Shown here piece after piece: positions 7,461 through 20,000 of a stretch of DNA of 20,000 nucleotides; position 1 is the stretch's first letter, and each line of letters begins with the position of its first letter. Both the position numbers and the translations under genes were made by a program. The notes below the pieces were generated by a model, which worked only from the letters and a program-made list of their open reading frames with translations, was not told the origin of the DNA and searched no databases. This DNA comes from an uncultured virus (IMG/VR IMGVR_UViG_3300037249_000775) (lineage: Duplodnaviria > Heunggongvirae > Uroviricota > Caudoviricetes). The stretch lies in IMG/VR virus record IMGVR_UViG_3300037249_000775, one strand, 5' to 3'.

Positions 7461-8414
7461 ATGGCAACAAGTACTATTCAAACAGGTATTCATCATCATA
7501 CCAGAGATGAACTTAAAAACTATGCATTGTTTTTAAGTGGATTGAATGTTACACATGATGTATTACAGAATTATGACCCGTTAAGAACTGGTTATGGTCG
7601 TTTGTTTATGGTTAGGCAACCTGTATTTCTCACAAAATGTATCCCTGATCAAATGTCAAAGTTTAAACATATTCTCGAATATGGCAACACTTCAATAAAC
7701 GGTCTTTCTGATATTACTCAGGAAACAAATACTATTACTGGTGGATATGCTGGTAAGAGTTTTGAAATTCCATCCTATGCTCAAGACGGTACGAATGGAT
7801 TAACTGTTCAGGTTTACGAATTTAGTGGTTCACCGGTTAGAGAAGTAATTCATACATGGATTAATGGTATGAACGATGTTCTTACTGGTCTTACACATTA
7901 TAATGGTTTGGCTACAGGTAATCCTGAAAATGCAAACGGTGATATAGTATATGCATCACAACATAATCAGACAGCAGAGTTTATTTATGTTGCTACAGAT
8001 AATACCGGTACAGAGGTTGAATATGCATGTATGTTTGCAAACTGCTTCCCGAAAGCAATTAAAACCGATCATTTCAATTATCAGTCTGGTAGTCACGAAT
8101 TGGTTGATTATACTATTGATTTTGCTGGAACAAAATATGAATCTATTCAGATTAATAGTGTTGCTAAATCATTACTCGATAGATATAAAATACTCGCTAA
8201 TAGTCTTAACTTTTACAGCGGAATTAAGGCTAATGATGCTAATACACTTGGTAATGGTCATTATTATGATGTAATAGATGGGCAGTTAAAAGATCGCGGA
8301 AGAGGTTCAGACGGTGGTCTGGTAACAACTAACGATAAATATTTTAATACTCCGTTAGATGAGACTGATATTAGTCGTATAAATGCATGGACAACCGATA
8401 ATAAACAATCGTAA
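7461..8414 (+). CDS. Putative tail tube protein
   Basis: 317-aa beta-rich protein immediately after the sheath. Segments YEFSGSPVREVIHTWING and EYACMFANCFPK...FNYQSG...YTIDF resemble the tube fold; RBS GGGAGG. Confidence 0.75.
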   Translation: MATSTIQTGIHHHTRDELKNYALFLSGLNVTHDVLQNYDPLRTGYGRLFMVRQPVFLTKCIPDQMSKFKHILEYGNTSINGLSDITQETNTITGGYAGKSFEIPSYAQDGTNGLTVQVYEFSGSPVREVIHTWINGMNDVLTGLTHYNGLATGNPENANGDIVYASQHNQTAEFIYVATDNTGTEVEYACMFANCFPKAIKTDHFNYQSGSHELVDYTIDFAGTKYESIQINSVAKSLLDRYKILANSLNFYSGIKANDANTLGNGHYYDVIDGQLKDRGRGSDGGLVTTNDKYFNTPLDETDISRINAWTTDNKQS

Positions 8415-8429
8415 TGTATAATTAAATAT

Positions 8430-8472
8430 AAAGAAAAGATACACATTTTATTGTGTATCTTTTCTTTCATTT
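8430..8472 (+). terminator. Rho-independent terminator-like hairpin
   Basis: 16-bp stem aaagaaaagatacaca / tgtgtatcttttcttt with a 6-nt loop, after the tube gene. Confidence 0.75.
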
Positions 8473-8487
8473 ATTATATTATCAAAA

Positions 8488-8500
8488 AACATAGATTTAA
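8488..8500 (+). promoter_or_regulatory. Putative phage late promoter AACA-N6-TAA
   Basis: aaca-tagatt-taa just upstream of the RBS of the RNAP gene. Confidence 0.6.
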
Positions 8501-8519
8501 TATGTAAGGAGGTAATATA

Positions 8520-11300
8520 ATGAGAATAGATTTATTCGATGTTAAAGATTTCATTGAAATAAATAAACTCCAGGAAGTAACTAGTCCAGTATTATTCCAA
8601 AGAGGTGATATTCCTCACCCTGATGGATTGGTTTCAAATAGAATTTTCGGTACAACTGTTCAATCAAGAAAAAATACTTTTGCATATATAAATTTATACG
8701 GACATTTTTTTCACCCTCATGTTTATAAGGCAATAAAACGTATGTTTAGAAATATGGAGAAAATAATTTCTGGTGAGCAATATTATATTATTAATAATAA
8801 AGGTATTCTTGAATTAAATGAAAATGGTGAAACAGGAATTGAATTTATTTATGATAATTGGGAAAAAATAAACTGGGAAAAAACTAGTGATAGTGGAATG
8901 CGTAATGAACGTATTGATATGCTTAAGAATTTTAAAAAAGATGAAATTTTTATGCAATATTTAATAGTTATCCCGCCTTTTTATAGAGATATTAAATCAA
9001 CATCATCTGGTGGAGAAACTGGTGAACTTAATAAGTTTTATACTAATGCTATTAGATATGCTTCTTTATTAAAAGATAGAGATATGTTTAGTTTTCAATT
9101 ATATCAAACAAATTCTAATATGCAAAATTTAATTGTAGATATTTACGATTATTTTAAGAATAAACTTGAAAAGAAAACTGGTATGTTAAGAAAATATCTT
9201 CTTGGTAAAAACGTTGATTATTGTAGTCGCACAGTAATTACTGCACCAAGATTTCATGCTAATAAACCAACTGAAATGCAGACCAGTTTTAAATATGCAT
9301 CTATACCAATATCTCAAATTTGTTCTTTATGCTATCCTTTTGTTGTAAAATGGGTAAAAGATTTTTTTGAAAGAGAAATTTTCTCTTTCAAAAACAGTAA
9401 ATTAGTTTATGATCCGATGACTAATAAAAGTGTTGAATGTGAACTTGATAATCCTGAATCTATTTTTACCGATAAATATATTAAAAAAATGATAGATGGA
9501 TATGTAAAAGATCCTGAATGTAGATTTAATAAAATAGAAGTACCTATTAAAAACAGTAATAAGAAACTCTTTTTAAAATTTGGCGGTAGACGATTAAATC
9601 AATCAAAAGAAGAATTATCTAATATTGCATATCGACCAATGACATATACTGATATCTTATATATGGCTGCTGTAGATGTTACTAAAGATAAACATTGTAT
9701 TATTACACGATATCCAGTAAATGATGAGTTTGGTTTATTTATAAATAAAATTCATGTAGTATCAACTACTACAACCGAACCTATAATGTGCAATGATAAA
9801 GTTTATCAATGGTATCCTGTAATAGATTTTAATGTATCTCCTGAAAAAATGGCTACAAAATTTATTGATTCAGTCCAGTTTTCTAATAGTTATCTGAAAG
9901 GTTTAGTAGGTGACTATGATGGTGACCAAACTACCGTAAAAATTATTTTTACTCAAGAAGCAAATGCTGAATGTGAAGCAAAAATGAATTCTAAGCAATT
10001 TTTCATAAATGCAAAAGGTTCGTTTATACGTGTAACTTCTAATGAGGGAATACAAACTATTTATACTTTAACTAAAAATCCTAAAACTACTGATAGGGTT
10101 TTAAGTACAGCTGATGCTCTTCAATTTATTCAAATGAAACCTGAAAATATAACATTTGAATTTCTTGTTGATACTTTTGGTAATACTGTTGATATTTCTA
10201 ATGGTGTAAGTACAAATGCAAAAAAATCTAATTATAATACTACTGATATAATAGATATTAAAGTACCGTATAATGGATTTAAAGGTAAAACTACGTTAGG
10301 TAGATTAATATATAATAAAATCGTTTTTGATCAGTCTGGACTGTCAAATGTGTTTGGTTATATAAATAAAGAAATTAATGATGATGTAAATTCAGGTATT
10401 GAACAACAAATAGCCAATTATACCAAAGAAGATAAAATTACAGTAGATCAATTATATAATTATATTGATTATCGTGATTGGGTTGGATTGCAATTACATG
10501 CTGTTATAACAACATCATTTACTAGCAATACGTTAAAGAGACCGCCTGAAGTAACTAAACTTAAAAATGAATTAATTAAAAAATATAAAAAAGAAATTGA
10601 AGAAGGAGATCCTAATATAGCTAATCTAATAGATAAAGAGTTGGTTAAAAAAACTGAAGAAATATTAGATGATGATATCGGTATGGATCTTTATAAGTCA
10701 GGTGCTCGTGGTTCTATGGGGAATAACTTCAAGAATATGTACTTATTTAGAGGAGCTGTTATGAATAGATCAACAGGTAAATATGAAATTCTTGAAAACG
10801 CTTTACTTGATGGTCTTGATAAAAAGAATATATCGGTTCATTCTAATACTATACTTGAAGGTGCATATCCTAAAGCTGTTGGTACTGCTGATAGTGGATA
10901 TTTAACTAAGCAAATAAGTTCTGGTCTACAAACTGAAGTATTGGGTGAATATGGTTCAGACTGTGGTACTAAAAAAACATTAGATATTACTATACCAAAA
11001 AAACCAGAAGATTATTTATATAGATATATAGTTGAAAATGGTAAACTTGTTTGTTTAACTCCTGATGTAATAGGTAACTATGTTGGTAAAACAGTAAAAA
11101 TGAGATCGCCGATGTACTGTATTGATAAAAAATGTATATGTAATAAATGTGCAGGAGATAATTTCTATAAACTTGATAAGAAAAATATAGGTCTTGTTGC
11201 TGTTACAATGGGCGGTGTATTGTTGAATCTTAACATGAAAAAATTCCATGATAATGTAGTTAAGATTCAAAATATTGATGTTAATGATATGCTAATATAA
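8520..11300 (+). CDS. rpoC: Phage multisubunit RNA polymerase beta'-like subunit (probably virion RNAP)
   Basis: DGLVSNRIFG (region A), GMLRKYLLGKNVDYCSRTVI (region C), ITRYPV, catalytic GDYDGDQ (nt 9909-9929), TTLGRLIYN, SGARGS, bridge helix GTADSGYLTKQI, Zn site DCGT...RSPMYC...ICNKC, trigger helix ending MKKFH. Lies among structural genes. Confidence 0.93.
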   Translation: MRIDLFDVKDFIEINKLQEVTSPVLFQRGDIPHPDGLVSNRIFGTTVQSRKNTFAYINLYGHFFHPHVYKAIKRMFRNMEKIISGEQYYIINNKGILELNENGETGIEFIYDNWEKINWEKTSDSGMRNERIDMLKNFKKDEIFMQYLIVIPPFYRDIKSTSSGGETGELNKFYTNAIRYASLLKDRDMFSFQLYQTNSNMQNLIVDIYDYFKNKLEKKTGMLRKYLLGKNVDYCSRTVITAPRFHANKPTEMQTSFKYASIPISQICSLCYPFVVKWVKDFFEREIFSFKNSKLVYDPMTNKSVECELDNPESIFTDKYIKKMIDGYVKDPECRFNKIEVPIKNSNKKLFLKFGGRRLNQSKEELSNIAYRPMTYTDILYMAAVDVTKDKHCIITRYPVNDEFGLFINKIHVVSTTTTEPIMCNDKVYQWYPVIDFNVSPEKMATKFIDSVQFSNSYLKGLVGDYDGDQTTVKIIFTQEANAECEAKMNSKQFFINAKGSFIRVTSNEGIQTIYTLTKNPKTTDRVLSTADALQFIQMKPENITFEFLVDTFGNTVDISNGVSTNAKKSNYNTTDIIDIKVPYNGFKGKTTLGRLIYNKIVFDQSGLSNVFGYINKEINDDVNSGIEQQIANYTKEDKITVDQLYNYIDYRDWVGLQLHAVITTSFTSNTLKRPPEVTKLKNELIKKYKKEIEEGDPNIANLIDKELVKKTEEILDDDIGMDLYKSGARGSMGNNFKNMYLFRGAVMNRSTGKYEILENALLDGLDKKNISVHSNTILEGAYPKAVGTADSGYLTKQISSGLQTEVLGEYGSDCGTKKTLDITIPKKPEDYLYRYIVENGKLVCLTPDVIGNYVGKTVKMRSPMYCIDKKCICNKCAGDNFYKLDKKNIGLVAVTMGGVLLNLNMKKFHDNVVKIQNIDVNDMLI

Positions 11301-11308
11301 GAGTAAAT

Positions 11309-11321
11309 CACAATTATATAA
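11309..11321 (+). promoter_or_regulatory. Putative phage late promoter CACA-N6-TAA
   Basis: caca-attata-taa upstream of the ORF at 11340. Confidence 0.45.
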
Positions 11322-11339
11322 AGAAAGGTCTGATGGATT

Positions 11340-11600
11340 ATGCCTAACTATAACGAAATAAAAACTAGAATTATTATTCGTAATGATACTTCCGATAACT
11401 GGGAAGGATCAACTATTGTTTTACAAAAAGGTGAACCTGCTATTGAGATTGATACCGTTAATAAAACTGGTAAACTTAAAATTGGTGATGGTACTTCTAC
11501 ATTTAGTCAGTTACCTTTTTCAACATTAACACCAGATGAAGTTGACGCTAAAATTGCAAGTGCAGGTTCTGGTGGAAGTCCTATATGGCAAACTTTATAA
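11340..11600 (+). CDS. Small Mtd_N/hyaluronidase-N-like tail-fibre adaptor protein
   Basis: RIIIRNDTSDNW...VLQKGEPAIEIDT...KLKIGDGTSTFSQLPF is the typical major-tropism-determinant N-terminal motif. Confidence 0.8.
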   Translation: MPNYNEIKTRIIIRNDTSDNWEGSTIVLQKGEPAIEIDTVNKTGKLKIGDGTSTFSQLPFSTLTPDEVDAKIASAGSGGSPIWQTL

Positions 11601-11632
11601 AATATTAATATAATGAAAGGATGTGAATAAAA

Positions 11633-12352
11633 ATGGCTGAAAGAAATTATGATTTTACAGAAATAAAAACCAGAATTATTATTCGTAATGATAGTGCTGA
11701 AAATTGGGCAGGTTCAGAAGTTATTCTAGAGAAAGGTGAGCCTGCAATAGAATATGATGCTGTAAATAAAACGGCTAAAATTAAATTCGGTGATGGTACT
11801 TCTACATTTAGTGAATTACCTTTTTCAACATTAACACCTACAGAGATTAATTCTGTTATAGGTAATATTTCATCATCTGTTTCTGGAATGCAATTTAAGG
11901 GCACTGTAGGTACATCTGGTACAGTTACAGATATTTCGTCAATTCAATCACCTCAGAATGGTGATACTTATAAAATTATTACAGGAATCACATTAACATC
12001 TGAGCAATCTTTAGATGGTAACGAACATGAATTAACTGTTGGAGATATTATTATATGCTCATCGGATAAATGGGTATTTGTTCCGTCTGGTAATGAAGAT
12101 ATCACAAGTATTAAAATTGCTGGTTCTGGTGATACAATCAATGTATCTGCAACAGCTCAAACTGGTGAGGTAGTACTTGGTACAGCGGCAGGTATTAACA
12201 CAACAACAAGCGTTACAAACGATAGTACAACAGTACCAACAACAAGTGCTGTTAAAACTTATGTCGATGATTCTGTTTCATCTATTAGTACAGATTCTCT
12301 TATAGATGGTGAAAATATTCTTATTCTTAATGGTGGTAGTGCTACAGAATAA
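11633..12352 (+). CDS. Mtd_N-like tail fibre/adaptor protein
   Basis: N-terminal domain paralogous to 11340. The C-terminal module (MQFKGTVG...GDTYKII...VPSGNEDITSIKIA...AVKTYVDD) is shared with the fibre at 18639. Confidence 0.8.
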   Translation: MAERNYDFTEIKTRIIIRNDSAENWAGSEVILEKGEPAIEYDAVNKTAKIKFGDGTSTFSELPFSTLTPTEINSVIGNISSSVSGMQFKGTVGTSGTVTDISSIQSPQNGDTYKIITGITLTSEQSLDGNEHELTVGDIIICSSDKWVFVPSGNEDITSIKIAGSGDTINVSATAQTGEVVLGTAAGINTTTSVTNDSTTVPTTSAVKTYVDDSVSSISTDSLIDGENILILNGGSATE

Positions 12353-12373
12353 TATAAAGAAAGGAGTATAACT

Positions 12374-12574
12374 ATGCTTGACGATGATAAAATTACTAGT
12401 AATAATCTCATGTATTTAGATAAGAAAGTATCTAGAATTTTAAAAAAAGTTTTAGATAATCCTGAATCAGAAATCTCTAAAACTATGCAAGAAAAATATA
12501 GTGATGAATCAGTGGAAGATATTGCTACTAGTGGTAAGACAATTATACTCAATGGTGGTACATCAGAGAATTAA
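12374..12574 (+). CDS. Small protein, stand-alone member of the shared N-terminal peptide family
   Basis: RBS AAGGAG. Carries YLDKKVSRILKKVLDNPESEI; its C-terminus IILNGGTSEN resembles the ILILNGGSATE end of 11633. Confidence 0.8.
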   Translation: MLDDDKITSNNLMYLDKKVSRILKKVLDNPESEISKTMQEKYSDESVEDIATSGKTIILNGGTSEN

Positions 12575-12576
12575 AT

Positions 12577-12613
12577 AAATAAGAGTGATACATCAAATGT
12601 ATCACTCTTATTT
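12577..12613 (+). terminator. Rho-independent terminator-like hairpin
   Basis: 17-bp stem aaataagagtgatacat / atgtatcactcttattt with loop caa. Confidence 0.75.
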
Positions 12614-12626
12614 TACATTTAATTAA
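12614..12626 (+). promoter_or_regulatory. Putative phage late promoter TACA-N6-TAA
   Basis: taca-tttaat-taa directly after the hairpin, upstream of 12659. Confidence 0.5.
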
Positions 12627-12658
12627 ATATATATATTAATAGAAAGGAAGATAATAAT

Positions 12659-13618
12659 ATGAGCGTTTCTAATAAAGATAGAGGGGTTAATAAAAAGATT
12701 AGAAATATATTAAAAGAATTATTTAAATCAGATTCTAATATTTATACCGATATTAAAAATGGTATAGATAAATTAGAAGAGAGTGAATTAGTAAAATTAA
12801 TTAATGACATTTTTACTAATAACGTTGTAAATCTTTCTTCTGATAAAATTAAAAAAATCAATCTGAGTATGAAAAATGCATGCCCAAGCTTAAGAACAGT
12901 TAATTTACCTAATGTAACCAGTATTGGTAATTATACATTTGACAGTTGTACTAAGTTAACTTCTATAGATTTACCTAATGTAACCAGTATTGGTAATAAT
13001 GCATTTCAACGTTGTACTAGTTTAACTTCTATAGATTTACCTAATGTAATCAGTATTGGTAATTATACATTTAACGGTTGTACTAAGTTAACTTCTATAG
13101 ATTTACCTAATGTAACCAGTATTGATGATTCTGCATTTTCAGGTTGTACTAAGTTAACTTCTATAAATATACCTAATGTAATCAGTATTGATAATTATAC
13201 ATTTAACAGTTGTACTAAGTTAACTTCTATAGATTTACCTAATGTAACCAGTATTGGTAATTCTGCATTTTCAGATTGTACTAGTTTAACTTCTATAGAT
13301 TTACCTAATGTAATCAGTATTGGTAATAATGCATTTAACGGTTGTACTAAGTTAACTTCTATAAATATACCTAATGTAACCAGTATTGATAATTATACAT
13401 TTAACGGTTGTACTAGTTTAACAAAAATAATTATTGGTACAGATTCAGACATATGTACATTAAAATCAACTAATGTATTTTATAGTACACCTATTGCAAG
13501 TGGTATGGGATATATTTATGTGCCAGATGATAAAGTTGATACATATAAATCAGCTACTAACTGGAGTACATATGCATCACAAATTAAACCTATTAGTGAA
13601 CTTCCTTCAGAAGAATAA
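12659..13618 (+). CDS. BspA-type leucine-rich repeat (LRR_5) protein
   Basis: Eight 22-aa repeats LPNVTSIGNxxFxxCTxLTSID and a C-terminal cap GYIYVPD...YKSATNWSTYASQIKPISEL. Confidence 0.92.
   Translation: MSVSNKDRGVNKKIRNILKELFKSDSNIYTDIKNGIDKLEESELVKLINDIFTNNVVNLSSDKIKKINLSMKNACPSLRTVNLPNVTSIGNYTFDSCTKLTSIDLPNVTSIGNNAFQRCTSLTSIDLPNVISIGNYTFNGCTKLTSIDLPNVTSIDDSAFSGCTKLTSINIPNVISIDNYTFNSCTKLTSIDLPNVTSIGNSAFSDCTSLTSIDLPNVISIGNNAFNGCTKLTSINIPNVTSIDNYTFNGCTSLTKIIIGTDSDICTLKSTNVFYSTPIASGMGYIYVPDDKVDTYKSATNWSTYASQIKPISELPSEE
12905..13432 (+). repeat. Eight tandem 66-bp near-identical units encoding LRRs
   Basis: Consensus ttacctaatgtaaccagtattggtaattatacatttaacggttgtactaagttaacttctatagat; units start at 12905 + 66n. 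Confidence 0.95.
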
Positions 13619-13646
13619 AAATTAAATAAGAAAGGAAGATAATATT

Positions 13647-13823
13647 ATGAACGCTTCTAATAAAGATAGAGGGCTTAACAAAAAAATTATTAATGTAATT
13701 GCAGATATTCTCGCTGACCCCTTTTCAGAACTTTATAAAGATATTAAAAAAGGTTTAGAACAACTAGAGGAGAATAGTGAATCAGAAAGTAAAAGTGACG
13801 AAGATTCTGATTCAGATAATTAA
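13647..13823 (+). CDS. 58-aa stand-alone shared-peptide protein (not in ORF track)
   Basis: RBS AAAGGAAG. MNASNKDRGLNKKIINVIADILADPFSELYKDIKKGLEQLEENSESESKSDEDSDSDN; RBS and 5' end nearly identical to those of 12659. Confidence 0.8.
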   Translation: MNASNKDRGLNKKIINVIADILADPFSELYKDIKKGLEQLEENSESESKSDEDSDSDN

Positions 13824-13854
13824 TATTTAAATATAAAAGAAAGGAGATATTATT

Positions 13855-14001
13855 ATGAAAAATACAAATCCTATGTATTTAGATAAAAAAATTATTAATA
13901 TTGTAAAGGAAGCTTTATCAGACCCTGAATCGGAGATTTATAAAGCAATTAAAAGAGAATTAGAAAAATCTGATTCGTCTGATAATGAAGAAGGCGAGTA
14001 A
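13855..14001 (+). CDS. 48-aa stand-alone shared-peptide protein (not in ORF track)
   Basis: RBS AAGGAG. MKNTNPMYLDKKIINIVKEALSDPESEIYKAIKRELEKSDSSDNEEGE; paralogue of 12374. Confidence 0.8.
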   Translation: MKNTNPMYLDKKIINIVKEALSDPESEIYKAIKRELEKSDSSDNEEGE

Positions 14002-14002
14002 T

Positions 14003-15049
14003 ATGATTAATTTAGGATTAAATAGAAAAGTTATTAAGGTTTTAGTTGATAGTCTTAGTGACTCTGATTCTAAAATTTATAAAGATATTATGAGTATTAC
14101 AGGTGAACCCTCTGGAGAAGTTGATGAAAACGATACTCTTATTAACTATCTTACAGATGGAACAGAAGTTACAACACTTACAAGTAATGCTGTTAAGAAA
14201 GTAGCCGATGATGTTTTTAATGGTTATAATAAATTAGTAACTGTTAATTTTCCTAAAGCTACTTCTATTGGTGTTCGTTCTTTCCAAGGTTGTACATCTT
14301 TAAATACAGTTGATTTTACAAATGCTAAATCATTAGGAAATTATGCATTTAAAGAGTGCTCTAACTTAAGAAATGTTACTATTCCTAATGTAGAAACAAT
14401 CGGTGATTGGGTTTTCCATAAATGTACAAAAATAAAAGTATTAACTTGTACTAATGTAAAAACTATTGGAGCATCCGCTTTTCAAGGTTGCTATGGATTA
14501 CATGATATTGACTTACCTGAGTGTACAGAAATTGGTACATCTGCATTTTATAGATGTGATTACATAGAGAGAATTAATTTACCTAAAGTAACAGTAATCC
14601 CTAATTCAGCTTTTGATACTGACACTGATAATGATAGACTTCTTACTGAAGTCAATTTACCCAATGTAACAAGTATTGGTGATAGAGCGTTTTATGGTAA
14701 AAATCAATTAACAGAAATTAATTTACCTAAAGTTGAAACCATTGGTACATCTGCTTTTAACTGTTGTCATGATTTATCAACGATTATTTTACCCAAAGTG
14801 ACATTTATCGACGATGGTGCGTTTAACCAATGCTTTTCTATAGATAAAATAATATTAGCTGGTTCTACAAAAGTTGAATTAGGTGAAACGGCAAATAGTG
14901 TATTTAGTCAATCAAATGTATGTGGTTCTGCGAGTTATTTTACTGGTATTTTTGTACCAGATAATTTAGTAGATACTTATAAATCAGATACAAACTGGGC
15001 TCCTGCTGCAGGAAACATTAAACCCCTTAGTCAATTACCGACTGAATAA
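14003..15049 (+). CDS. BspA-type LRR protein (diverged repeats)
   Basis: About 10 repeats of the form xLPxVxxIGxxAFxxCxxL and a cap GIFVPDNLVDTYKSDTNW...IKPLSQLP. The ATG at 14003 (1 nt after the previous stop, preceded by GAAGGCGAG) is preferred to 13985. Confidence 0.9.
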   Translation: MINLGLNRKVIKVLVDSLSDSDSKIYKDIMSITGEPSGEVDENDTLINYLTDGTEVTTLTSNAVKKVADDVFNGYNKLVTVNFPKATSIGVRSFQGCTSLNTVDFTNAKSLGNYAFKECSNLRNVTIPNVETIGDWVFHKCTKIKVLTCTNVKTIGASAFQGCYGLHDIDLPECTEIGTSAFYRCDYIERINLPKVTVIPNSAFDTDTDNDRLLTEVNLPNVTSIGDRAFYGKNQLTEINLPKVETIGTSAFNCCHDLSTIILPKVTFIDDGAFNQCFSIDKIILAGSTKVELGETANSVFSQSNVCGSASYFTGIFVPDNLVDTYKSDTNWAPAAGNIKPLSQLPTE

Positions 15050-15052
15050 TTT

Positions 15053-15088
15053 ATTGTAAGATGAGCAGTAACATGTTCATCTTACAAT
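15053..15088 (+). terminator. Terminator-like hairpin
   Basis: 15-bp stem attgtaagatgagca / tgttcatcttacaat with one G-T pair. Confidence 0.65.
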
Positions 15089-15095
15089 TATTTAA
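15083..15095 (+). promoter_or_regulatory. Putative phage late promoter TACA-N6-TAA
   Basis: taca-attatt-taa upstream of 15119. Confidence 0.5.
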
Positions 15096-15118
15096 TATCA
15101 TAGAAACGAGGCGATTAT

Positions 15119-15712
15119 ATGTCAAATTCAAATTTAGGATTAAACCGAAAAATTAGTTCCGTTGTGTCTAAGAATTTAACAGACACTGAATCGGATATTT
15201 ATAAGCAAATAAGTGAAATTGTTAGTGAATATACTGTTGATGAAGCAGATGAAGACAGTGGTATAGTTGCTATAATTGAACGTGGTAAAGATAATGTAAC
15301 AGAATTTAAAGAAAAACGTATAACAGTTATAACTCAAAATATGTTCTCTGACTTTCCAAATTTAACATATTTATATTTACCTAATGTAACCAGTATTGGT
15401 GATAGTGCATTTTATAGCTGTAGCAATTTAATTTCTATAGATTTACCTAATGTAACCAGTATTGGTGATAGTGCATTTGAAAGTTGTAACAATTTATCAA
15501 CAGTTATAATGTCGACCAATCAAATAATAACATTAGAAGATAAAAGTGTATTTAATGATACACCCATTTCGAATAAAACAGGATATATTTATGTACCAGA
15601 TTCACTTGTAAATAGTTATAAATCTACATCTGGTTGGTCAACATATGCTTCACAAATTAAACCTATTAGCGAACTTCCCCAAGAATATAAAACTCTTTAT
15701 AATATAACATAA
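15119..15712 (+). CDS. Short BspA-type LRR protein
   Basis: Two to three LRRs (LPNVTSIGDSAF twice, 66 bp apart at 15377 and 15443) and the same C-terminal cap as 12659. Confidence 0.9.
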   Translation: MSNSNLGLNRKISSVVSKNLTDTESDIYKQISEIVSEYTVDEADEDSGIVAIIERGKDNVTEFKEKRITVITQNMFSDFPNLTYLYLPNVTSIGDSAFYSCSNLISIDLPNVTSIGDSAFESCNNLSTVIMSTNQIITLEDKSVFNDTPISNKTGYIYVPDSLVNSYKSTSGWSTYASQIKPISELPQEYKTLYNIT

Positions 15713-15733
15713 TACATTTTATTTATTCATTTT

Positions 15734-15746
15734 TACATTTATTTAA
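15734..15746 (+). promoter_or_regulatory. Putative phage late promoter TACA-N6-TAA
   Basis: taca-tttatt-taa upstream of the ATG at 15772. Confidence 0.5.
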
Positions 15747-15771
15747 TATATTAAAGAAAAGAGGCTTTATT

Positions 15772-16145
15772 ATGCCCACAACAAATTCGAGTATTCAATT
15801 TAAACATGGTTTACAAGAAGCTTTTAGTAGTATTACAAAAGATTCTAACACAATTTATTTTATTACAGATACAAATAGATTATTGTAGGTGATAGTGAGT
15901 ATACTCGTCCTGTACAACATGGAAGTGAGTTACCCACAAGTAAAAATCCTGCTAACTCTTTATTTGTAAAAGAGACAGGTACTGCACGTGAGCTTTACTA
16001 TAGTAAAGACGGTACAGCATGGGATATGATTGCTTATTTACCCGCTACAATTACTGGCGGTGTATTTGGTGATAATACAGCTGGAACTGTAGCTTATGGT
16101 GGTACAGTAAAAGTTCCTAAGGTTACAGTAGACAATATCTGCTAA
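15772..16145 (+). pseudogene. Frameshifted and truncated tail-fibre gene, paralogue of 18639
   Basis: MPTTNSSIQFKHG...KDSNTIYFITDTNRL then TAG at 15886. The shifted frame continues VGDSEYTRPV...LYYSKDGTAW...KVPKVTVDN, collinear with the 18639 protein, and stops at 16143-16145. Confidence 0.85.
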
Positions 16146-16166
16146 TATTTCTAATGTTTTATCCAT
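16138..16166 (-). pseudogene. 5' remnant of a paralogue of the 17654-18298 gene
   Basis: The minus strand reads MDKTLEILAD versus MNETLKILAE, with the same RBS (GAGGA) and promoter upstream. Similarity ends at the junction with the fibre pseudogene. Confidence 0.75.
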
Positions 16167-16202
16167 GTCATGTTCCTCTTTTCGACTTTTTTCGACAATA
16201 AT

Positions 16203-16230
16203 ATTATACACTATTTTTTTAAAAAGTCAA
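16203..16230 (-). promoter_or_regulatory. SigmaA/sigma70-type promoter TTGACT-N16-TATAAT
   Basis: Minus-strand TTGACT (16230-16225) and TATAAT (16208-16203). Confidence 0.7.
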
Positions 16231-16307
16231 GGGTGGTTATGTTTAAAGAAAACTCCGTGTTTTTCATATAAAATAAAGAAAAATTTCATTTGAAAAGGAG
16301 AGATTAC

Positions 16308-17561
16308 ATGCCAAATGAAAAGGTACAATTTAAAAGAGGTATCGCTGCGAACCTTCCTGTAACTATGACTGCAGGTCAGATTTTAATTGAAACAGATACT
16401 GGAAATATGTATGTTGATGATTCCAATAATTCAAGAGTACAAATAAAAGATAACTCTAAAATTCAGTCTATTGTAGGGGACGGTTCTTCTACAACAATTA
16501 CGTATAATAAAGGAGATGGCTCAAACGGGAGCTTTATCACTAAAGACACTACATACTCGAATGCAACAACTTCTACCGCAGGACTGATGAGTGCGGCAGA
16601 TAAAACTAAAATGGACGCCATCCCATATAGTAGAAGAACTGCTGAGGGTGTGCCAGATTATAACGTGATAGGTTCTAACTCTTGTACTTTAGGAGCAAAC
16701 AATGTGGCTTCCAAATCTGCAAGTATGTCTTTTGGTGCTCAAATTGTCAATGTTGATCATAGTGCATTAGTTTGTGGAAGAATAAACACAACAACAACAA
16801 CCCCAAATGAAAGTTTGTCTGATGGAACAAGCGGAAATGTTTTTATTGTTGGCAATGGTACTCGTACAGCTGTAGGAGATGGCTCTAGCTATACTTTTAA
16901 TCGTTCAAATGCTTTTAGAGTATCTTACACAGGAGCAACATATGGCAACGGGGCTTTCAACACTTCTGGTGCCGATTATGCGGAATTTATTAAACCTTGG
17001 TTTGATGGCAACCCAGATAATGAGGACCGCATTGGCTATATGGTAACAATAAAGGATGGCTATTTATATAAAGCAAATGAGGGAGATCACATTATTGGTA
17101 TTACTTCTGGAAATCCTTCTATTGTTGGTAATGCGGATGAAAACTATTATTGGAAATATGAACGAGATGTTTTTAACCGTATTATTTATGAAGATGTAGA
17201 AGAAATAAAAGATCAAGAGATTGAGACGACTTCTTATGATGAGAATGGCAATCTAATAATTATAAAGGACACTGTCCCTGTTAAAACAGGTAAAATTATT
17301 AAAAATGGAAAACCTAAAATTTCTTCTTCTTATAATGAAGATTTACAAAGTTCATATATAGAAAGAAAAGACAGACCTGAATGGTCTTATGTTGGTATGA
17401 GGGGGATCGTCCCTGTTCGAGACGACGGAACCTGTGTTGCTGGCGGCTTCTGCAAATGTGGAACAGAGGGTGTCGCAACATATACTTCGCAGCAAAATTT
17501 TGAAACATATTATGTAATTGAAAGAATTGCAGAAAATATTATTTCCATAGAAGTAAAATAA
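16308..17561 (+). CDS. Tail fibre/appendage protein with C-terminal peptidase G2 intramolecular chaperone
   Basis: N-terminal VQFKRG...ETDTGNMYVD, ATTSTAGLMSAADKTK, and C-terminal SGADYAEF...WFDGNPDNEDRIGYMVT...RPEWSYVGMRG.VPVRDDGTC. RBS AAGGAGAG favours the ATG at 16308. Confidence 0.85.
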   Translation: MPNEKVQFKRGIAANLPVTMTAGQILIETDTGNMYVDDSNNSRVQIKDNSKIQSIVGDGSSTTITYNKGDGSNGSFITKDTTYSNATTSTAGLMSAADKTKMDAIPYSRRTAEGVPDYNVIGSNSCTLGANNVASKSASMSFGAQIVNVDHSALVCGRINTTTTTPNESLSDGTSGNVFIVGNGTRTAVGDGSSYTFNRSNAFRVSYTGATYGNGAFNTSGADYAEFIKPWFDGNPDNEDRIGYMVTIKDGYLYKANEGDHIIGITSGNPSIVGNADENYYWKYERDVFNRIIYEDVEEIKDQEIETTSYDENGNLIIIKDTVPVKTGKIIKNGKPKISSSYNEDLQSSYIERKDRPEWSYVGMRGIVPVRDDGTCVAGGFCKCGTEGVATYTSQQNFETYYVIERIAENIISIEVK

Positions 17562-17653
17562 AATTAAAGAGATGAAAGATGTGGCAGAATAGGTAATAAA
17601 ATTTTCAAAAGAGGTAGAGAGCAATCTTTATAGATACAACAAAAGGCAATAAG

Positions 17654-18298
17654 TCAGTAAGAGTTTCTATTTCGGTGTGCGGCTACCCGCAGCTGAGTAT
17701 TAGTAATATTAATATAAGTACCTTTAACTCCTTGAGAAACAACATCTGCCACTTTGTACTCTTGCATCTTCTTCAAGAGTGAAGTCCATACTGGACGAGA
17801 AATATTATACTTTTTAATCATTGCGGAAATGCTAATGTTGCCAGAACTGCCAATTTCTGCCACTATGCTTTTATAAGCTCTTGTTTCGCCATGGCTTAGC
17901 TGATTAAAGAAAAAATCCTCTGAACAGCCTGTATCAAATTCAGCACTTAGAGCTGTTTTAAAAAGTAGAATTAAACCATCATCTATTGTGTCTGAGCATA
18001 AGAAATAATTTTCAAAAATATCGTTGTAATTTATTATGCTAAATTGATTTGTGATAAAATCTTGAGAGTATTTTTTAAATTCTCTAATATCAACGGTTAG
18101 TATTTCTTTTCCAGTTGCTAACTGTATTTCGGTATTCATATCCTTATTTAAAATCAATTCATTAAAAGACGGCACTATAAAAACTATATCTACATCCATT
18201 ATGTTGCTATCCTCTCTTACATTTTTAAATTCCAATATAGCAACGATATGATTTATATCATAGCACTTTTCTGCTAAAATTTTTAATGTTTCATTCAT
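17654..18298 (-). CDS. Protein with C-terminal CodY-like winged HTH and degenerate nucleotidyltransferase-like N-terminus
   Basis: QLSHGETRAYKSIVAEIG.SGNISISAMIKKYNISRPVWTSLLKKMQEYKVADVVSQGVKGTYINITN aligns with the CodY C-terminus (SLSYSELEA...[36 protein letters not shown]). Has its own RBS and promoter; no GAF domain recognised. Confidence 0.8.
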   Translation of the reverse strand: MNETLKILAEKCYDINHIVAILEFKNVREDSNIMDVDIVFIVPSFNELILNKDMNTEIQLATGKEILTVDIREFKKYSQDFITNQFSIINYNDIFENYFLCSDTIDDGLILLFKTALSAEFDTGCSEDFFFNQLSHGETRAYKSIVAEIGSSGNISISAMIKKYNISRPVWTSLLKKMQEYKVADVVSQGVKGTYINITNTQLRVAAHRNRNSY

Positions 18299-18366
18299 AA
18301 TTCTATTTCCTCTTTTCGACTTTTTTCGACATTTTTATTATACATTATTTTTTATTAAAAGTCAAG
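18270..18366 (+). repeat. Direct repeat copy 2
   Basis: Matches 16138-16231. Confidence 0.9.
18337..18365 (-). promoter_or_regulatory. SigmaA/sigma70-type promoter TTGACT-N17-TATAAT for the CodY-like gene
   Basis: Minus-strand TTGACT (18365-18360), 17-nt spacer, TATAAT (18342-18337). The leader contains GTCGAAAA twice, then the GAGGA RBS. Confidence 0.8.
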
Positions 18367-18638
18367 TCCAAAACCATATGGAATTATTATATTAAAGAGG
18401 ATATGCCTAATGATTAAAGATAGAATGGACAATGTGTTTGCCCAGAAAACAGATACCTGATTAAAGTTAAACCATTATCTGAGTTACCCGATAAGTACAA
18501 TATTAAATGGTAAAATAAGAAGATAGAACAACATTATTTTATCCTTTTAATTTAATATTATTAATGTCTTTTTGACATATAAAAGAAAGATATCTATTTT
18601 ACAATAGAATCAAATCTTTATAGAAAGGAAGTTTTTGC

Positions 18639-20000
18639 ATGCCAACAAATAATGTTAAATTCAAACGTGGTACTATGGCAGCCTTTGCAAACGTCGCCAC
18701 CAAAGATCCGAATACTATTTATTTCATTACAGATACTAATAGAATTTACGTTGGTGATTCAGAATATTCTCGTCCAGTGTTATATGGAAACGCGGCTCCA
18801 TCTAATACGATGCCACAAGGTACCCTATATATAAGAGAAATTACTGAAAACAATATCACCCGCCAACAATTATATTATTCCAATGGCAGTACATGGACCG
18901 CTGTTAATATAGAGCCGGGAGATATCCTTGCAGAAGCCATAACGGCAGGGAATGATGGCAACGTTACCCCAACTAATTCCGCAACAACTTTTAAAGTTCC
19001 AACGATTACTGTTGATACAAAAGGTAGGGTTAGTAATGCAGTTGAGAGAACTATTGATTTAGTTAACTTTATGCCAAAAAGCGGTGGAACTTTTACTGGA
19101 GATGTAGTCTTTAATAGAACGCTGGAAACTACAAGTAATATACGCCTATACAGGGGTACTCAAGGAAATATACCAGCTATTGATTGGGATGCTAATCCTG
19201 GCGATCTGTATATAGATGCAGCAACCGTAAGTATTTCTAGTCCAGTTACAATGAGTGGTGCCTCTACTATTTCTGCTACGCCTACAATAAACAATAGTAT
19301 TGTAAATAAGAAATACGTTGATGATAAAATTACAGAAGTATTGCAAGCAACTTCTAGTGCAATGGTTTTTAAAGGCACAATAGGTACAGATGGAACATAC
19401 TCACATGTAACATCTATTGACTTTCAATCTGCTCAGATAGGAGATACTTATAAAATCATTTCTAATGAATTACTTGGTCATGACGAATCTGCGGATCATA
19501 ATCAGCATCTTATGAAAGCAGGCGACTTACTTGTATATACTGGAAACAGTGCTTTTACTTATGTTCCTTCTGGCGATGAAGATGTTACAAGTATAAAAAT
19601 TGCTAACTCGGGTGATACAATTAATGTATCCACAACAGCACAGACAGGGACAGTAGTACTTGGTGATGTAGCGGCAAAGAAAGTATCTACTTCTACAACA
19701 CTTAATGGTAATGGTGCTAGTAATGATAATGTAGCTACAGAGTTAGCTGTTAAAACTTATGTAGATGATACAGTTGGTGCTCTTGAGAATACACTTGGTA
19801 CAGCAGCTACAACTGATGCTACTGATTATGCAACAGCAGCTCAGGGTACATTGGCAGATAATGCTATGCCTAAGAGTGGTGGTACATTTACGGGTGCAGT
19901 TACACTTGCAGGTGCCCCAACAACCGACCTTAATGCTGCTACAAAGAAATATGTAGATGATTCAGTTTCTGGTGTTACTGATACGAAAGTAACAACTGTT
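18639..20000 (+). CDS. Tail fibre protein (3'-truncated; not in ORF track)
   Basis: RBS AAAGGAAG. MPTNNVKFKRGTMAAF...DPNTIYFITDTNRIYVGDSEYSRPV... is open for 454 codons to the window end, with MPKSGGTFTG twice, KxYVDD three times and YATAAQGTLADNA. Confidence 0.9.
   Translation, partial: MPTNNVKFKRGTMAAFANVATKDPNTIYFITDTNRIYVGDSEYSRPVLYGNAAPSNTMPQGTLYIREITENNITRQQLYYSNGSTWTAVNIEPGDILAEAITAGNDGNVTPTNSATTFKVPTITVDTKGRVSNAVERTIDLVNFMPKSGGTFTGDVVFNRTLETTSNIRLYRGTQGNIPAIDWDANPGDLYIDAATVSISSPVTMSGASTISATPTINNSIVNKKYVDDKITEVLQATSSAMVFKGTIGTDGTYSHVTSIDFQSAQIGDTYKIISNELLGHDESADHNQHLMKAGDLLVYTGNSAFTYVPSGDEDVTSIKIANSGDTINVSTTAQTGTVVLGDVAAKKVSTSTTLNGNGASNDNVATELAVKTYVDDTVGALENTLGTAATTDATDYATAAQGTLADNAMPKSGGTFTGAVTLAGAPTTDLNAATKKYVDDSVSGVTDTKVTTV

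What the first reader, a model, noticed from the sequence alone, without database searches (positions are those of the whole stretch)
12374..15260. Six consecutive genes share an unannotated ~30-aa N-terminal peptide, alone or fused to LRRs: candidate modular display/docking system
Seen: consensus [GY]L[ND][KR]K[IV]xx[IV][LVI]xxxLxDx[DE]SxIYKxI followed by an acidic linker. Copies: 12374 YLDKKVSRILKKVLDNPESEISKTM; 12659 GVNKKIRNILKELFKSDSNIYTDI; 13647 GLNKKIINVIADILADPFSELYKDI; 13855 YLDKKIINIVKEALSDPESEIYKAI; 14003 GLNRKVIKVLVDSLSDSDSKIYKDI; 15119 GLNRKISSVVSKNLTDTESDIYKQI. Three are 48-66-aa stand-alone proteins with strong RBSs (two missed by the ORF track); three carry BspA-type LRR cargo of different lengths. 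It is an amphipathic helix-turn-helix pattern, not a signal peptide. Inference: an oligomerisation or virion-docking tag that lets interchangeable LRR binders and cargo-less spacer subunits co-assemble, giving a combinatorial adhesin or host-protein-binding repertoire.
Basis: partly seen in the sequence, partly recalled or inferred. Interest (0 to 1): 0.76.

Follow-up and report, generated by a model that had tools for sequence, protein, structure and literature searches.

The report
Shared N-terminal tag, phage LRR family
Inside the tail-fibre gene region of a large phage from ruminant guts, fast-varying leucine-rich-repeat binder proteins and conserved mini-proteins all begin with the same roughly 30-residue two-helix tag, most likely a handle that mounts them on the virus particle.

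Summary
Six consecutive + strand genes (12374-15712) begin with a homologous ~30-aa peptide. When each peptide is left out of the profile, it is still recovered at E 4.6e-7 to 3.8e-15 among 6,646 ORFs.

A profile search of 1.84 billion proteins found the tag only in one clade of phage-like metagenome proteins, almost always at the very N-terminus. Other phage BspA-type LRR proteins do not have it.

I collected 70 distinct family members. They fall into three tag subtypes:
- Type A (30 of 30) never carries LRRs. It carries short tails, and 19 of them copy the conserved C-terminal tail of the neighbouring fibre gene.
- Types B and C carry LRR arrays in 35 of 40 cases. The arrays vary by whole 22-aa units and at four hypervariable positions.

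The 66-aa gene is under purifying selection (dN/dS 0.20, against 0.15 for the RNA polymerase), so it is not debris. AlphaFold predicts two helices, an acidic low-confidence linker, then the LRR.

Best reading (about 0.4): a lineage-specific docking or assembly handle that tethers LRR binders and small adaptors to the tail-fibre apparatus. Binding is not shown, and the single complex job gave no verdict. This is a new variant of the known [quoted passage not shown] principle.

The parts
11340..11600 (+). fib1: an 86-aa protein made of a fibre N-terminal domain (Mtd_N) and a short tail ending in ...SPIWQTL.
   Evidence: Pfam Mtd_N at 1.1e-9 and PHROG tail fibre/assembly families. It is 65% identical to the fib2 N-terminus. 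It is conserved in L021 and L023 with dN/dS 0.09.
11633..12352 (+). fib2: a 239-aa cassette-type fibre protein with a conserved N-terminus, a swappable centre and a conserved C-terminal tail ...DGENILILNGGSATE.
   Evidence: Pfam Mtd_N at 3.5e-6. Three alleles (window; L021/L023; L022) share the last ~32 aa, and the two full-length alleles also share the first 69 aa (L022 holds only the C-terminal 93 aa). Their centres are unrelated.
12374..12574 (+). small1: 66 aa. It has a type A tag (core 12413-12502), a variable acidic linker, and a C-terminal tail GKTIILNGGTSEN that resembles the fib2 tail.
   Evidence: The degenerate ILNGG pattern gives 2 matches in the window against 0.04 expected. There are 19 distinct orthologues of 58-79 aa. 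dN/dS is 0.20 against L021. AlphaFold gives H15-27 and H33-42, with pLDDT 86 over residues 21-40.
12577..12613 (+). Terminator-like hairpin that closes the fib1-fib2-small1 unit.
   Evidence: Stem of 17 pairs (that scan listed it on the - strand, but the palindrome reads on both strands and is followed by TTTTACATTT on the + strand).
12659..13618 (+). LRR1: 319 aa. It has a type B tag (core 12683-12772), a linker and an array of BspA-type LRRs.
   Evidence: LRR_5 at 7.7e-53. Orthologues of 187, 209, 231, 275, 319 and 341 aa differ by whole 22-aa units.
12903..13422 (+). Tandem array inside LRR1: 66-nt period, 7.9 copies, 86% matches.
   Evidence: Tandem Repeats Finder. Variability between units peaks at unit positions 14, 15, 18 and 19.
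13647..13823 (+). small2: 58 aa. It has a type B tag (core 13671-13760) and a Ser/Asp/Glu tail with net charge -8 over 20 residues.
   Evidence: The orthologue P0001 is 55 aa and 78% identical. The RBS and the first ~55 codons align with the 5' end of LRR1. A partial orthologue follows an LRR1 allele in L022.
13855..14001 (+). small3: 48 aa. It has a type A tag (core 13876-13965) and an acidic tail. Its stop lies 1 nt before the LRR2 start (TAAtATG).
   Evidence: Five near-identical orthologues: four of 48 aa (P0049-52) and P0054 (58 aa with an upstream extension). One relative (P0019) has a 5-aa deletion in the tag.
14003..15049 (+). LRR2: 348 aa. It has a type C tag (core 14015-14104), an acidic linker and LRRs.
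   Evidence: LRR_5 at 5.8e-62. Mosaic relatives join the LRR2 N-terminus to LRR1-type units and the LRR3 C-terminus (P0004, P0006, P0028, P0029). Matching joints appear in metagenome contigs.
15053..15088 (+). Terminator-like hairpin after LRR2.
   Evidence: 15 pairs followed by a T-rich tail.
15119..15712 (+). LRR3: 197 aa. It has a type C tag (core 15137-15226), an acidic linker and a short LRR array.
   Evidence: LRR_5 at 2.9e-15. AlphaFold gives H4-21 and H26-36, residues 36-45 at pLDDT <50, then the LRR strands.
15772..16145 (+). Context, not a family member: a frameshifted and truncated N-terminal fragment of a fibre gene related to 18639+. This is what true debris looks like in this region.
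   Evidence: Three-frame reading compared with P0025. Two of the four laid runs carry an extra T at 15882. One run has 647 further bases at 16137.

Best explanation
**What it is.** The six genes belong to a lineage-specific family of a roughly 240-kb phage of ruminant guts. The family is defined by a ~30-residue N-terminal two-helix module followed by an acidic flexible linker.

**Proposed mechanism.** I read the module as a docking or assembly handle of the tail-fibre apparatus.
- Types B and C of the handle carry LRR solenoids. Their repeat number and four surface positions per repeat vary quickly, which suits them as binders for a variable ligand, most simply a host or gut surface.
- Type A of the handle sits on small conserved proteins. 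Their C-terminal tails copy the conserved C-terminal tails of the neighbouring fibre proteins. These small proteins would act as adaptors or place-holders at the sites that those fibre tails use.

**Shown here.**
- The family exists.
- The module is restricted to the N-terminus.
- There are three subtypes, each with its own cargo rule.
- small1 is under purifying selection.
- The LRR arrays are hypervariable and mosaic.
- The genes lie between fibre genes.

**Inferred, not shown.** That the module binds anything, that the proteins are in the virion, and what the LRRs bind.
For: **Family and position of the tag.**
- The profile search found 24 proteins at E <= 1e-3. In 22 of them the tag lies within the first ~50 residues. 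One has it internally (a miscalled ORF) and one is a spurious coiled-coil protein.
- Word-based searches added 32 longer proteins, 26 of them with PF13306, and 31 short ones.

**Census of 70 distinct sequences** (after removing two window duplicates found).
- Type A, 30 sequences: ILNGG tail 19, LDENGK-type tail 2, acidic or no tail 9, LRR 0.
- Type B, 11 sequences: LRR 9, none 2.
- Type C, 29 sequences: LRR 26, truncated 3.

**The tag is not an LRR cap.**
- All 22 phage records matched by LRR2 align only from residue 42 or later.
- AlphaFold separates the two helices from the LRR by a linker with pLDDT <50.

**Fibre context.**
- Mtd_N fibre genes lie upstream. A Peptidase_G2 fibre and a further fibre gene lie downstream.
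- The small1 tail matches the fib2 tail.
- The fib2 tail is invariant across three alleles with unrelated centres, and small1 follows fib2 in L021, L022 and L023.
- P0009 and P0047 join a type A tag to a tail ending like fib1.

**Selection and variability.**
- small1 against L021 gives dN/dS 0.20 (Sd 14, Nd 15, 65 codons). RNA polymerase gives 0.15.
- 18 aligned small1-type sequences go down to 52% identity yet keep MYLDKKV, NPESEISK and GK..ILNGG.
- LRR variability: 44 unique units have entropy 2.6-2.8 bits at positions 14, 15, 18 and 19, and about 0-0.6 at most scaffold positions.

**Precedent.** Conserved N-terminal peptides that dock secondary receptor-binding proteins, including truncated proteins that still carry the peptide, are described for Klebsiella, K1-5/SP6 and G7C phages (PMC6872550; passages read).
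Against: - No binding, virion presence or partner has been shown.
- No T4gp10-like branching domain or other candidate socket was seen among the window's proteins. The rest of the genome is not held.
- LRR solenoids are not known phage receptor-binding proteins. My two literature searches found no such case.
- In two other phages, BspA-type LRR genes lie outside tail modules: beside helicases in PV036455.1, and beside a giant ORF in a crAss-like phage.
- Truncated or internally deleted forms are frequent in relatives (P0002, P0010, P0017, P0019, P0053, P0070). small2 looks like a partial duplicate of LRR1. Some cargo-less forms may therefore be tolerated by-products.
- For small2 and small3, only close orthologues (78-98% identical) were found, so selection on them is untested.
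- The tail resemblance between small1 and fib2 covers only about 11 residues, and I defined the search pattern after seeing it.
- The census classes were assigned by simple motifs in a script. Many database proteins come from contigs of 1-4 kb.
Confidence: 0.4

Rival explanations
1. The tag has no docking role. It is just the conserved 5' part of a rapidly recombining paralogous LRR gene family. The conserved N-terminal and C-terminal sequences serve mainly as homology arms for cassette exchange. The short ORFs are products of partial duplication and truncation, and a few (small1) were later kept for some unrelated reason.
For: - small2 shares the RBS and ~55 codons with the 5' end of LRR1.
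- Mosaic proteins and contig joints link LRR1, LRR2 and LRR3.
- Truncated or deleted forms are common in relatives.
- The same region holds an N-terminal-only fibre protein (fib1) and a broken fibre fragment.
- fib2 also has conserved ends around swapped centres.
Against: - small1 is under purifying selection (dN/dS 0.20).
- small1 keeps its reading frame down to 52% identity in a 28% G+C genome.
- Type A tags form a separate subtype that is never joined to LRRs (0 of 30). Random truncation of LRR genes would not produce this.
- At the protein level the tag keeps an amphipathic two-helix pattern across subtypes that are only 26-54% identical.
Confidence: 0.22
2. The tag is a capsid-targeting or ejection signal like the T4 internal-protein capsid targeting sequence. 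It would load diverse cargo (LRR proteins, acidic peptides) into the head for injection with the DNA and the virion RNA polymerase. The LRRs would then bind host proteins inside the cell.
For: [quoted passage not shown]
- The genes lie just downstream of an RNA polymerase beta'-like gene that sits among structural genes.
- Jumbo phages of this kind package many ejection proteins (abstracts of PMC5694885 and PMC7411985 in the listing).
Against: - By my reading of alignment A4, no invariant protease-type motif follows the tag at a fixed position.
- The genes are flanked on both sides by fibre genes, not head genes.
- Type A tails copy fibre C-termini.
- The tag is about three times longer than what I recall, not from a call, as a T4 signal of about ten residues.
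Confidence: 0.12
3. The proteins are non-structural intracellular factors for host takeover or counter-defence. The tag would be a shared interaction helix for a host or phage hub. The small tag-only proteins would act as competitors or regulators of the LRR forms.
For: - LRR genes of other gut phages lie in replication-type neighbourhoods.
- Highly acidic small phage proteins are often inhibitors (general knowledge, not tested here).
Against: - The genes share orientation and position with the fibre genes. Terminator-like hairpins divide the cluster into units that begin with fibre genes.
- The tail mimicry of fibre proteins has no place in this model.
Confidence: 0.08

Closest known systems
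Conserved N-terminal docking peptides of secondary receptor-binding proteins in branched RBP systems (Klebsiella KP32/KP34/Menlow/PhiK64-1 groups, K1-5/K1E/SP6, G7C; Latka et al. 2019, PMC6872550)
   Same: A short conserved N-terminal peptide is shared by several neighbouring genes of the fibre region whose C-terminal parts differ. The peptide is specific to one phage group. Truncated proteins that keep the peptide exist in both systems (passages read).
   Different: - The cargo here is an LRR solenoid or a tail of 10-30 residues, not a trimeric beta-helical depolymerase.
- The tag is a two-helix hairpin of about 30 residues with an acidic linker.
- It comes in three subtypes, each with its own cargo rule.
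- No T4gp10-like socket was seen in the window.
- Binding has not been tested.
Capsid targeting sequence of T4 internal proteins
   Same: Diverse cargo shares only an N-terminal tag, and the tagged gene set is plastic (PMC3012670).
   Different: Here the genes sit among fibre genes and no conserved cleavage motif was seen after the tag. The tag is also longer than the T4 signal, whose length I give from recall.
BspA-type leucine-rich repeat proteins (Pfam PF13306, LRR_5); solved examples are cell-surface proteins of Bacteroides and Faecalibacterium (4fd0, 4gt6, 4fdw, 3sb4)
   Same: The three long proteins match LRR_5 far above the gathering score. The LRR3 model finds these chains, but only weakly (E 4e-3 to 5e-2).
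   Different: The phage proteins have the two-helix tag. I saw no hydrophobic signal-like stretch at their N-termini, though I ran no predictor. The tag is not found on other LRR_5 proteins.
Variable lymphocyte receptors of jawless vertebrates (analogy only)
   Same: Both are LRR binders that diversify by changing the number and order of LRR modules and by varying a few positions per module. VLR-derived chains are among the weak structural matches.
   Different: There is no homology beyond the LRR fold. Here diversification is between phage genomes, through recombination among three paralogues, not somatic assembly.

Membership tests
Pfam PF13306 LRR_5 (BspA-type LRR) | The family HMM matches above its gathering score (27.7 bits). 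| tested here: met
   LRR1 scores 178.2 bits, LRR2 207.7 and LRR3 56.7. small1, small2 and small3 have no match. The tag itself lies outside the matched region, which starts at residues 66-87.
Branched RBP systems with a conserved docking peptide | Several genes share a conserved N-terminal peptide while their C-terminal parts diverge. | tested here: met
Branched RBP systems with a conserved docking peptide | The genes lie in the tail-fibre/RBP module. | tested here: met
   Mtd_N fibre genes lie upstream. A Peptidase_G2 fibre and a further tail fibre lie downstream.
Branched RBP systems with a conserved docking peptide | A primary RBP or adaptor has a T4gp10-like branching domain that receives the peptide. 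| tested here: inconclusive
   No such domain appears among the 18 window proteins in Pfam or PHROGs. Only 20 kb of a roughly 240-kb genome is held.
Branched RBP systems with a conserved docking peptide | The cargo is a trimeric tailspike or depolymerase. | tested here: not met
   The cargo is an LRR_5 solenoid or a short tail.
Branched RBP systems with a conserved docking peptide | The peptide physically binds the virion partner. | not testable with these tools
   No partner is known. This needs virion proteomics or binding assays.
T4-type capsid targeting sequence | A conserved prohead-protease cleavage motif directly follows the tag. | tested here: inconclusive
   By eye, no invariant motif sits at a fixed column after the tag in A4. 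The specificity of this phage's protease is unknown.
T4-type capsid targeting sequence | The proteins are found inside the capsid. | not testable with these tools
   This needs proteomics of purified heads.
Diversity-generating retroelement target (Mtd-like) | A reverse transcriptase and a template/variable repeat pair lie nearby. | tested here: not met
   None of the 18 window proteins has a reverse transcriptase family. The Mtd_N match is only the generic fibre N-terminal domain. The rest of the genome was not seen.

The most novel reading that the evidence does not exclude
This would be a three-part plug-and-socket system that puts LRR binders on phage fibres.
- Small type A proteins insert with a tail copied from the fibre's own conserved C-terminus.
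- They present their two-helix tag.
- That tag pairs with the homologous type B or C tag of an LRR protein.

One fibre scaffold could then display a shifting set of LRR binders, diversified much like variable lymphocyte receptors. These would be the first LRR-based receptor-binding proteins of a phage. The tag-only acidic proteins would serve as caps or competitors that set how many sites are occupied.
Probability: 0.12. Interest if true: 0.8.

Novelty: new variant of a known kind. Interest (0 to 1): 0.6.

Why it matters
If the tag is a docking handle, it is a compact natural adaptor of about 30 residues for mounting unrelated binders on a large phage. LRR solenoids would then join the short list of folds that phages use to recognise surfaces. 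That bears on host range and on how phages adhere in the gut.

The family also shows binder diversification in the open. Repeat number, four positions per repeat and mosaic recombination all differ between the same phage lineage in cattle and goat gut samples.

The conserved 64-79-aa proteins are real genes of a size that annotation pipelines may skip. Their mimicry of fibre tails gives a concrete binding hypothesis to test.

Tried and rejected
**Complex prediction.** small3 with LRR2 residues 1-60, each with a family alignment, scored 0.02 against a mark of 0.32. Controls were not run. This is no verdict either way.

**Searches for relatives or context.**
- Whole genome of the window: not held. 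The nearest held record, G001, is an 8.7-kb fragment without the tag.
- Megablast of 8000-20000 against phage records: no match.
- IMG/VR scans with small2 and with the type C alignment: no relatives. Alignment A2 was too variable for that tool.
- First JGI metagenome scan, with A3: none. The second scan, with P0060, gave three short true loci, L021-L023. L024 and L025 are high-GC chance hits.
- GTDB genomes: one Clostridia MAG matched only the LRR part.
- 16 loci around RNA polymerase relatives (about 51% identical) lack the tag, the LRR genes and the fibre genes within 10 kb.
- Five complete relatives of 223-282 kb gave no convincing tag match. The best was E 0.024 with a stop codon inside.

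**Searches for known folds or families.**
- ESM Atlas with small1: best score 0.87, under the level that counts.
- PDB profile search: the only hits were designed armadillo-repeat proteins, with no single stretch passing. I regard this as a sum of weak helical-repeat matches.
- Foldseek of the LRR3 model: only weak LRR matches, none at E <= 1e-3.

**Other.**
- A shared promoter-like motif after the hairpins (TTTACATTTA) gave 2 matches. 16 of 200 shuffles do as well, so I dropped it. The sigma-70 scan found no excess.
- Read laying showed contigs of a metatranscriptome run over the small ORFs, but such libraries can hold DNA, so this is not evidence of expression. The difference tables were cut (331 and 35 rows not shown), so I made no dN/dS from them. 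One contig joint that skips LRR1 plus small2 has only 29 bases on one side, so it is not counted.
- Earlier findings of this scan: none.
- Three further hits were dropped from the census: P0022 (tag fused to an HrcA-like end, probably a chimeric contig), P0023 (tag internal, a miscalled ORF) and P0024 (a eukaryote-like coiled coil).

Full report
**Setting.** The window is about 29% G+C and encodes phage structural genes on the + strand:
- a terminase large subunit (2-1999);
- a tail sheath (4702-7440);
- a tail tube (7461-8414);
- a single 926-aa RNA polymerase beta'-like protein (8520-11300);
- fibre genes after that.

The polymerase is 30% identical to those of Fusobacterium phages JD-Fnp, and about 51% identical to 15 IMG/VR contigs of up to 282 kb. 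Family members found later sit on contigs of up to 242,822 bases, so this is a jumbo-type phage. Near-identical DNA occurs in 20 listed sequencing runs from 17 studies, labelled bovine, goat or unspecified gut metagenomes.

**The observation.** Six consecutive ORFs occupy 12374-15712. Each has a purine-rich ribosome-binding stretch.

| Gene | Coordinates | Length |
|---|---|---|
| small1 | 12374-12574 | 66 aa |
| LRR1 | 12659-13618 | 319 aa |
| small2 | 13647-13823 | 58 aa |
| small3 | 13855-14001 | 48 aa |
| LRR2 | 14003-15049 | 348 aa |
| LRR3 | 15119-15712 | 197 aa |

- Their N-termini align over about 30-40 residues. The other five are 26-54% identical to small2.
- A profile of the six finds only them among 6,646 ORFs of the window and 16 related loci.
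- With each copy left out in turn, the omitted copy is still found at E 4.6e-7 to 3.8e-15. The best unrelated ORF scores 0.03-0.3.
- Pfam LRR_5 matches the three long proteins strongly and none of the short ones.
- Terminator-like hairpins at 12577-12613 and 15053-15088 divide the cluster into units.
- The stop codon of small3 lies one base before the LRR2 start.

**Is the tag the ordinary start of BspA LRR proteins? No.**
- tblastn of LRR2 against 50,697 phage records gave 22 records. All align only from residue 42 or later.
- A profile search of 1.84 billion representative proteins gave 24 hits at E <= 1e-3. In 22 the tag lies within the first ~50 residues. One has it internally in what looks like a miscalled ORF. 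One is an unrelated coiled-coil protein.
- The tag is absent from the 10-kb flanks of 16 polymerase relatives and from five complete relatives.
- It is therefore specific to one narrow clade.

**The family.** Two word-based searches added 32 longer proteins (26 with PF13306 on record) and 31 short ones. After dropping three doubtful hits and two duplicates of window proteins, 70 distinct sequences remain. I classified them by simple motifs.

| Tag type | Motif | Total | Cargo |
|---|---|---|---|
| A | YLDKK | 30 | tail ending GK(T)IILNGG(T/S)xx: 19; tail with LDENGK: 2; acidic or no tail: 9; LRR: 0 |
| B | G[LV]NKK | 11 | LRR: 9; none: 2 |
| C | GLNRK | 29 | LRR: 26; truncated: 3 |

The window holds two of each type. 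Some short database forms come from contigs of about 0.5-3 kb and may be cut.

**Are the small ORFs real genes?**
- *small1: yes.* 18 aligned sequences go down to 52% identity. They keep MYLDKKV, NPESEISK and the C-terminal GK..ILNGG, while the first dozen residues and the linker vary, including in-frame indels. Against the orthologue on L021, dN/dS is 0.20 (Sd 14.0, Nd 15.0, 65 codons, dS 0.51). RNA polymerase against L023 gives 0.15.
- *small3: unresolved.* I found five orthologues that differ from it by one to four residues over the shared 48 aa, and one with a five-residue deletion inside the tag.
- *small2: unresolved.* I found one orthologue at 78% identity and a partial one on L022. Its ribosome-binding site and first ~55 codons align with the 5' end of LRR1, so it began as a partial duplication.
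- Selection on small2 and small3 is untested.
- True debris looks different. 15772-16145 is a frameshifted, truncated fibre fragment. Two of the four laid runs carry one extra base there, and one carries 647 more bases at its end.

**Structure.**
- AlphaFold on LRR3 with 11 family sequences gives helices 4-21 and 26-36, residues 36-45 at pLDDT below 50, a short helix, then LRR strands every 22 residues. Mean pLDDT is 68.9.
- On small1 with 20 sequences it gives helices 15-27 and 33-42, with pLDDT 86 over residues 21-40. The tail is of low confidence.
- The 20-25 residues after the tag carry net charge -3 to -8.
- The tag is thus a small amphipathic two-helix unit on a flexible acidic tether, not a confident part of the solenoid.

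**The link to fibres.**
- Upstream lie fib1 (86 aa, an Mtd_N domain only) and fib2 (239 aa). Downstream lie a Peptidase_G2 fibre and another fibre gene.
- fib2 exists in three alleles. The last ~32 residues are shared by all three, and the first 69 by the two full-length ones. The centres are unrelated.
- small1 follows fib2 directly in L021, L022 and L023. It ends in a tail like that of fib2: GKTIILNGGTSEN against GENILILNGGSATE. The degenerate pattern occurs only at these two places, against 0.04 expected, although I wrote the pattern after seeing the motif.
- Two other type A proteins (P0009, P0047) end in a tail resembling the end of fib1.
- Type A proteins thus combine the family tag with a copy of a fibre's conserved C-terminal tail.

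**The LRR cargo is a diversifying binder.**
- LRR1 contains a 66-nt tandem array of 7.9 copies.
- Its orthologues keep the first ~75 residues and the C-terminal cap but measure 187, 209, 231, 275, 319 and 341 aa, which are steps of 22 residues.
- Mosaic proteins join the LRR2 N-terminus, LRR1-type units and the LRR3 C-terminus (P0004, P0006, P0028, P0029). Contigs of other runs show matching joints.
- Among 44 unique 22-residue units, entropy is 2.6-2.8 bits at positions 14, 15, 18 and 19. It is zero at L1, F17 and C20.

**Mechanism.** The best-supported reading is a docking or assembly handle of the fibre apparatus. This rests on the fibre context, the cargo rule, the tail mimicry, and the precedent of group-specific conserved N-terminal peptides on secondary receptor-binding proteins, truncated ones included (PMC6872550; passages read).
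- *Missing evidence.* No binding has been shown and no socket domain is in view. Two literature searches found no known LRR receptor-binding protein of a phage. LRR genes of two other gut phages lie outside tail modules.
- *Rivals.* The tag may be only a recombination-prone family core with by-product ORFs. It may be a capsid-targeting signal like that of T4 internal proteins (PMC3012670; passages read). Or the proteins may have an intracellular role.
- *Confidence.* I put the docking reading at about 0.4.

**Novelty.** The principle of a conserved N-terminal peptide with swappable distal parts is known. The new elements are:
- the two-helix tag itself, which has no match in Pfam, PHROGs or the PDB;
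- its three subtypes with a cargo rule;
- LRR cargo that diversifies by module number and by four positions per module;
- conserved mini-proteins that pair the tag with fibre-tail copies.

I rate it a new variant of a known kind.

Noticed in passing
window 15772-16145: An N-terminal fragment of a fibre gene related to 18639+ is split by a one-base frameshift near 15885 and ends early. In two of the four laid runs (X8, X15) an extra T at 15882 keeps the frame, while X2 and X6 match the window. X6 carries 647 further bases at 16137.
   Followed up: partly
window 11633-12352; L021 443-1153; L023 3125-3835; L022 1-282: fib2 is a cassette gene. The two full-length alleles share the first 69 residues and all three share the last ~32, around three unrelated central domains. 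This fits exchange of a receptor-binding centre between conserved ends.
   Followed up: partly
window 11340-11600: fib1 is a stand-alone 86-aa Mtd_N-type fibre N-terminal domain. It is 65% identical to the fib2 start and well conserved in two metagenome contigs (dN/dS 0.09). It is another N-terminal-module-only protein in the same region.
   Followed up: partly
window 12903-13422 and family LRR units: Within the 22-residue LRR unit, variability is concentrated at positions 14, 15, 18 and 19 (IG-xx-A-F-xx-C). These lie outside the conserved LTSIDLP strand, so the variable face is probably not the classical concave sheet.
   Followed up: partly
window 8520-11300: A single 926-aa RNA polymerase beta'-like gene lies between the tail tube and the fibre genes. 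In Listeria, Staphylococcus and Bacillus jumbo phages only its first ~520 residues match, as a separate gene. The full length matches only Fusobacterium phages, at 30%.
   Followed up: no
window 17654-18298 (- strand): A 214-aa gene on the opposite strand sits between two fibre genes. It has no family match, only a weak sub-threshold HTH_CodY hit.
   Followed up: no
proteins P0012-P0015, P0044-P0046, P0048: A subgroup of type C relatives ends in a conserved extra tail, LPQEIREELELC(Q/G)I(Q/E)I, after the LRR cap. LRR3 and its relatives end in LPQEYKTLYNIT. This may be a second, C-terminal module.
   Followed up: no
protein P0015 (488 aa): One relative carries two complete LRR modules in tandem behind a single tag.
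   Followed up: no
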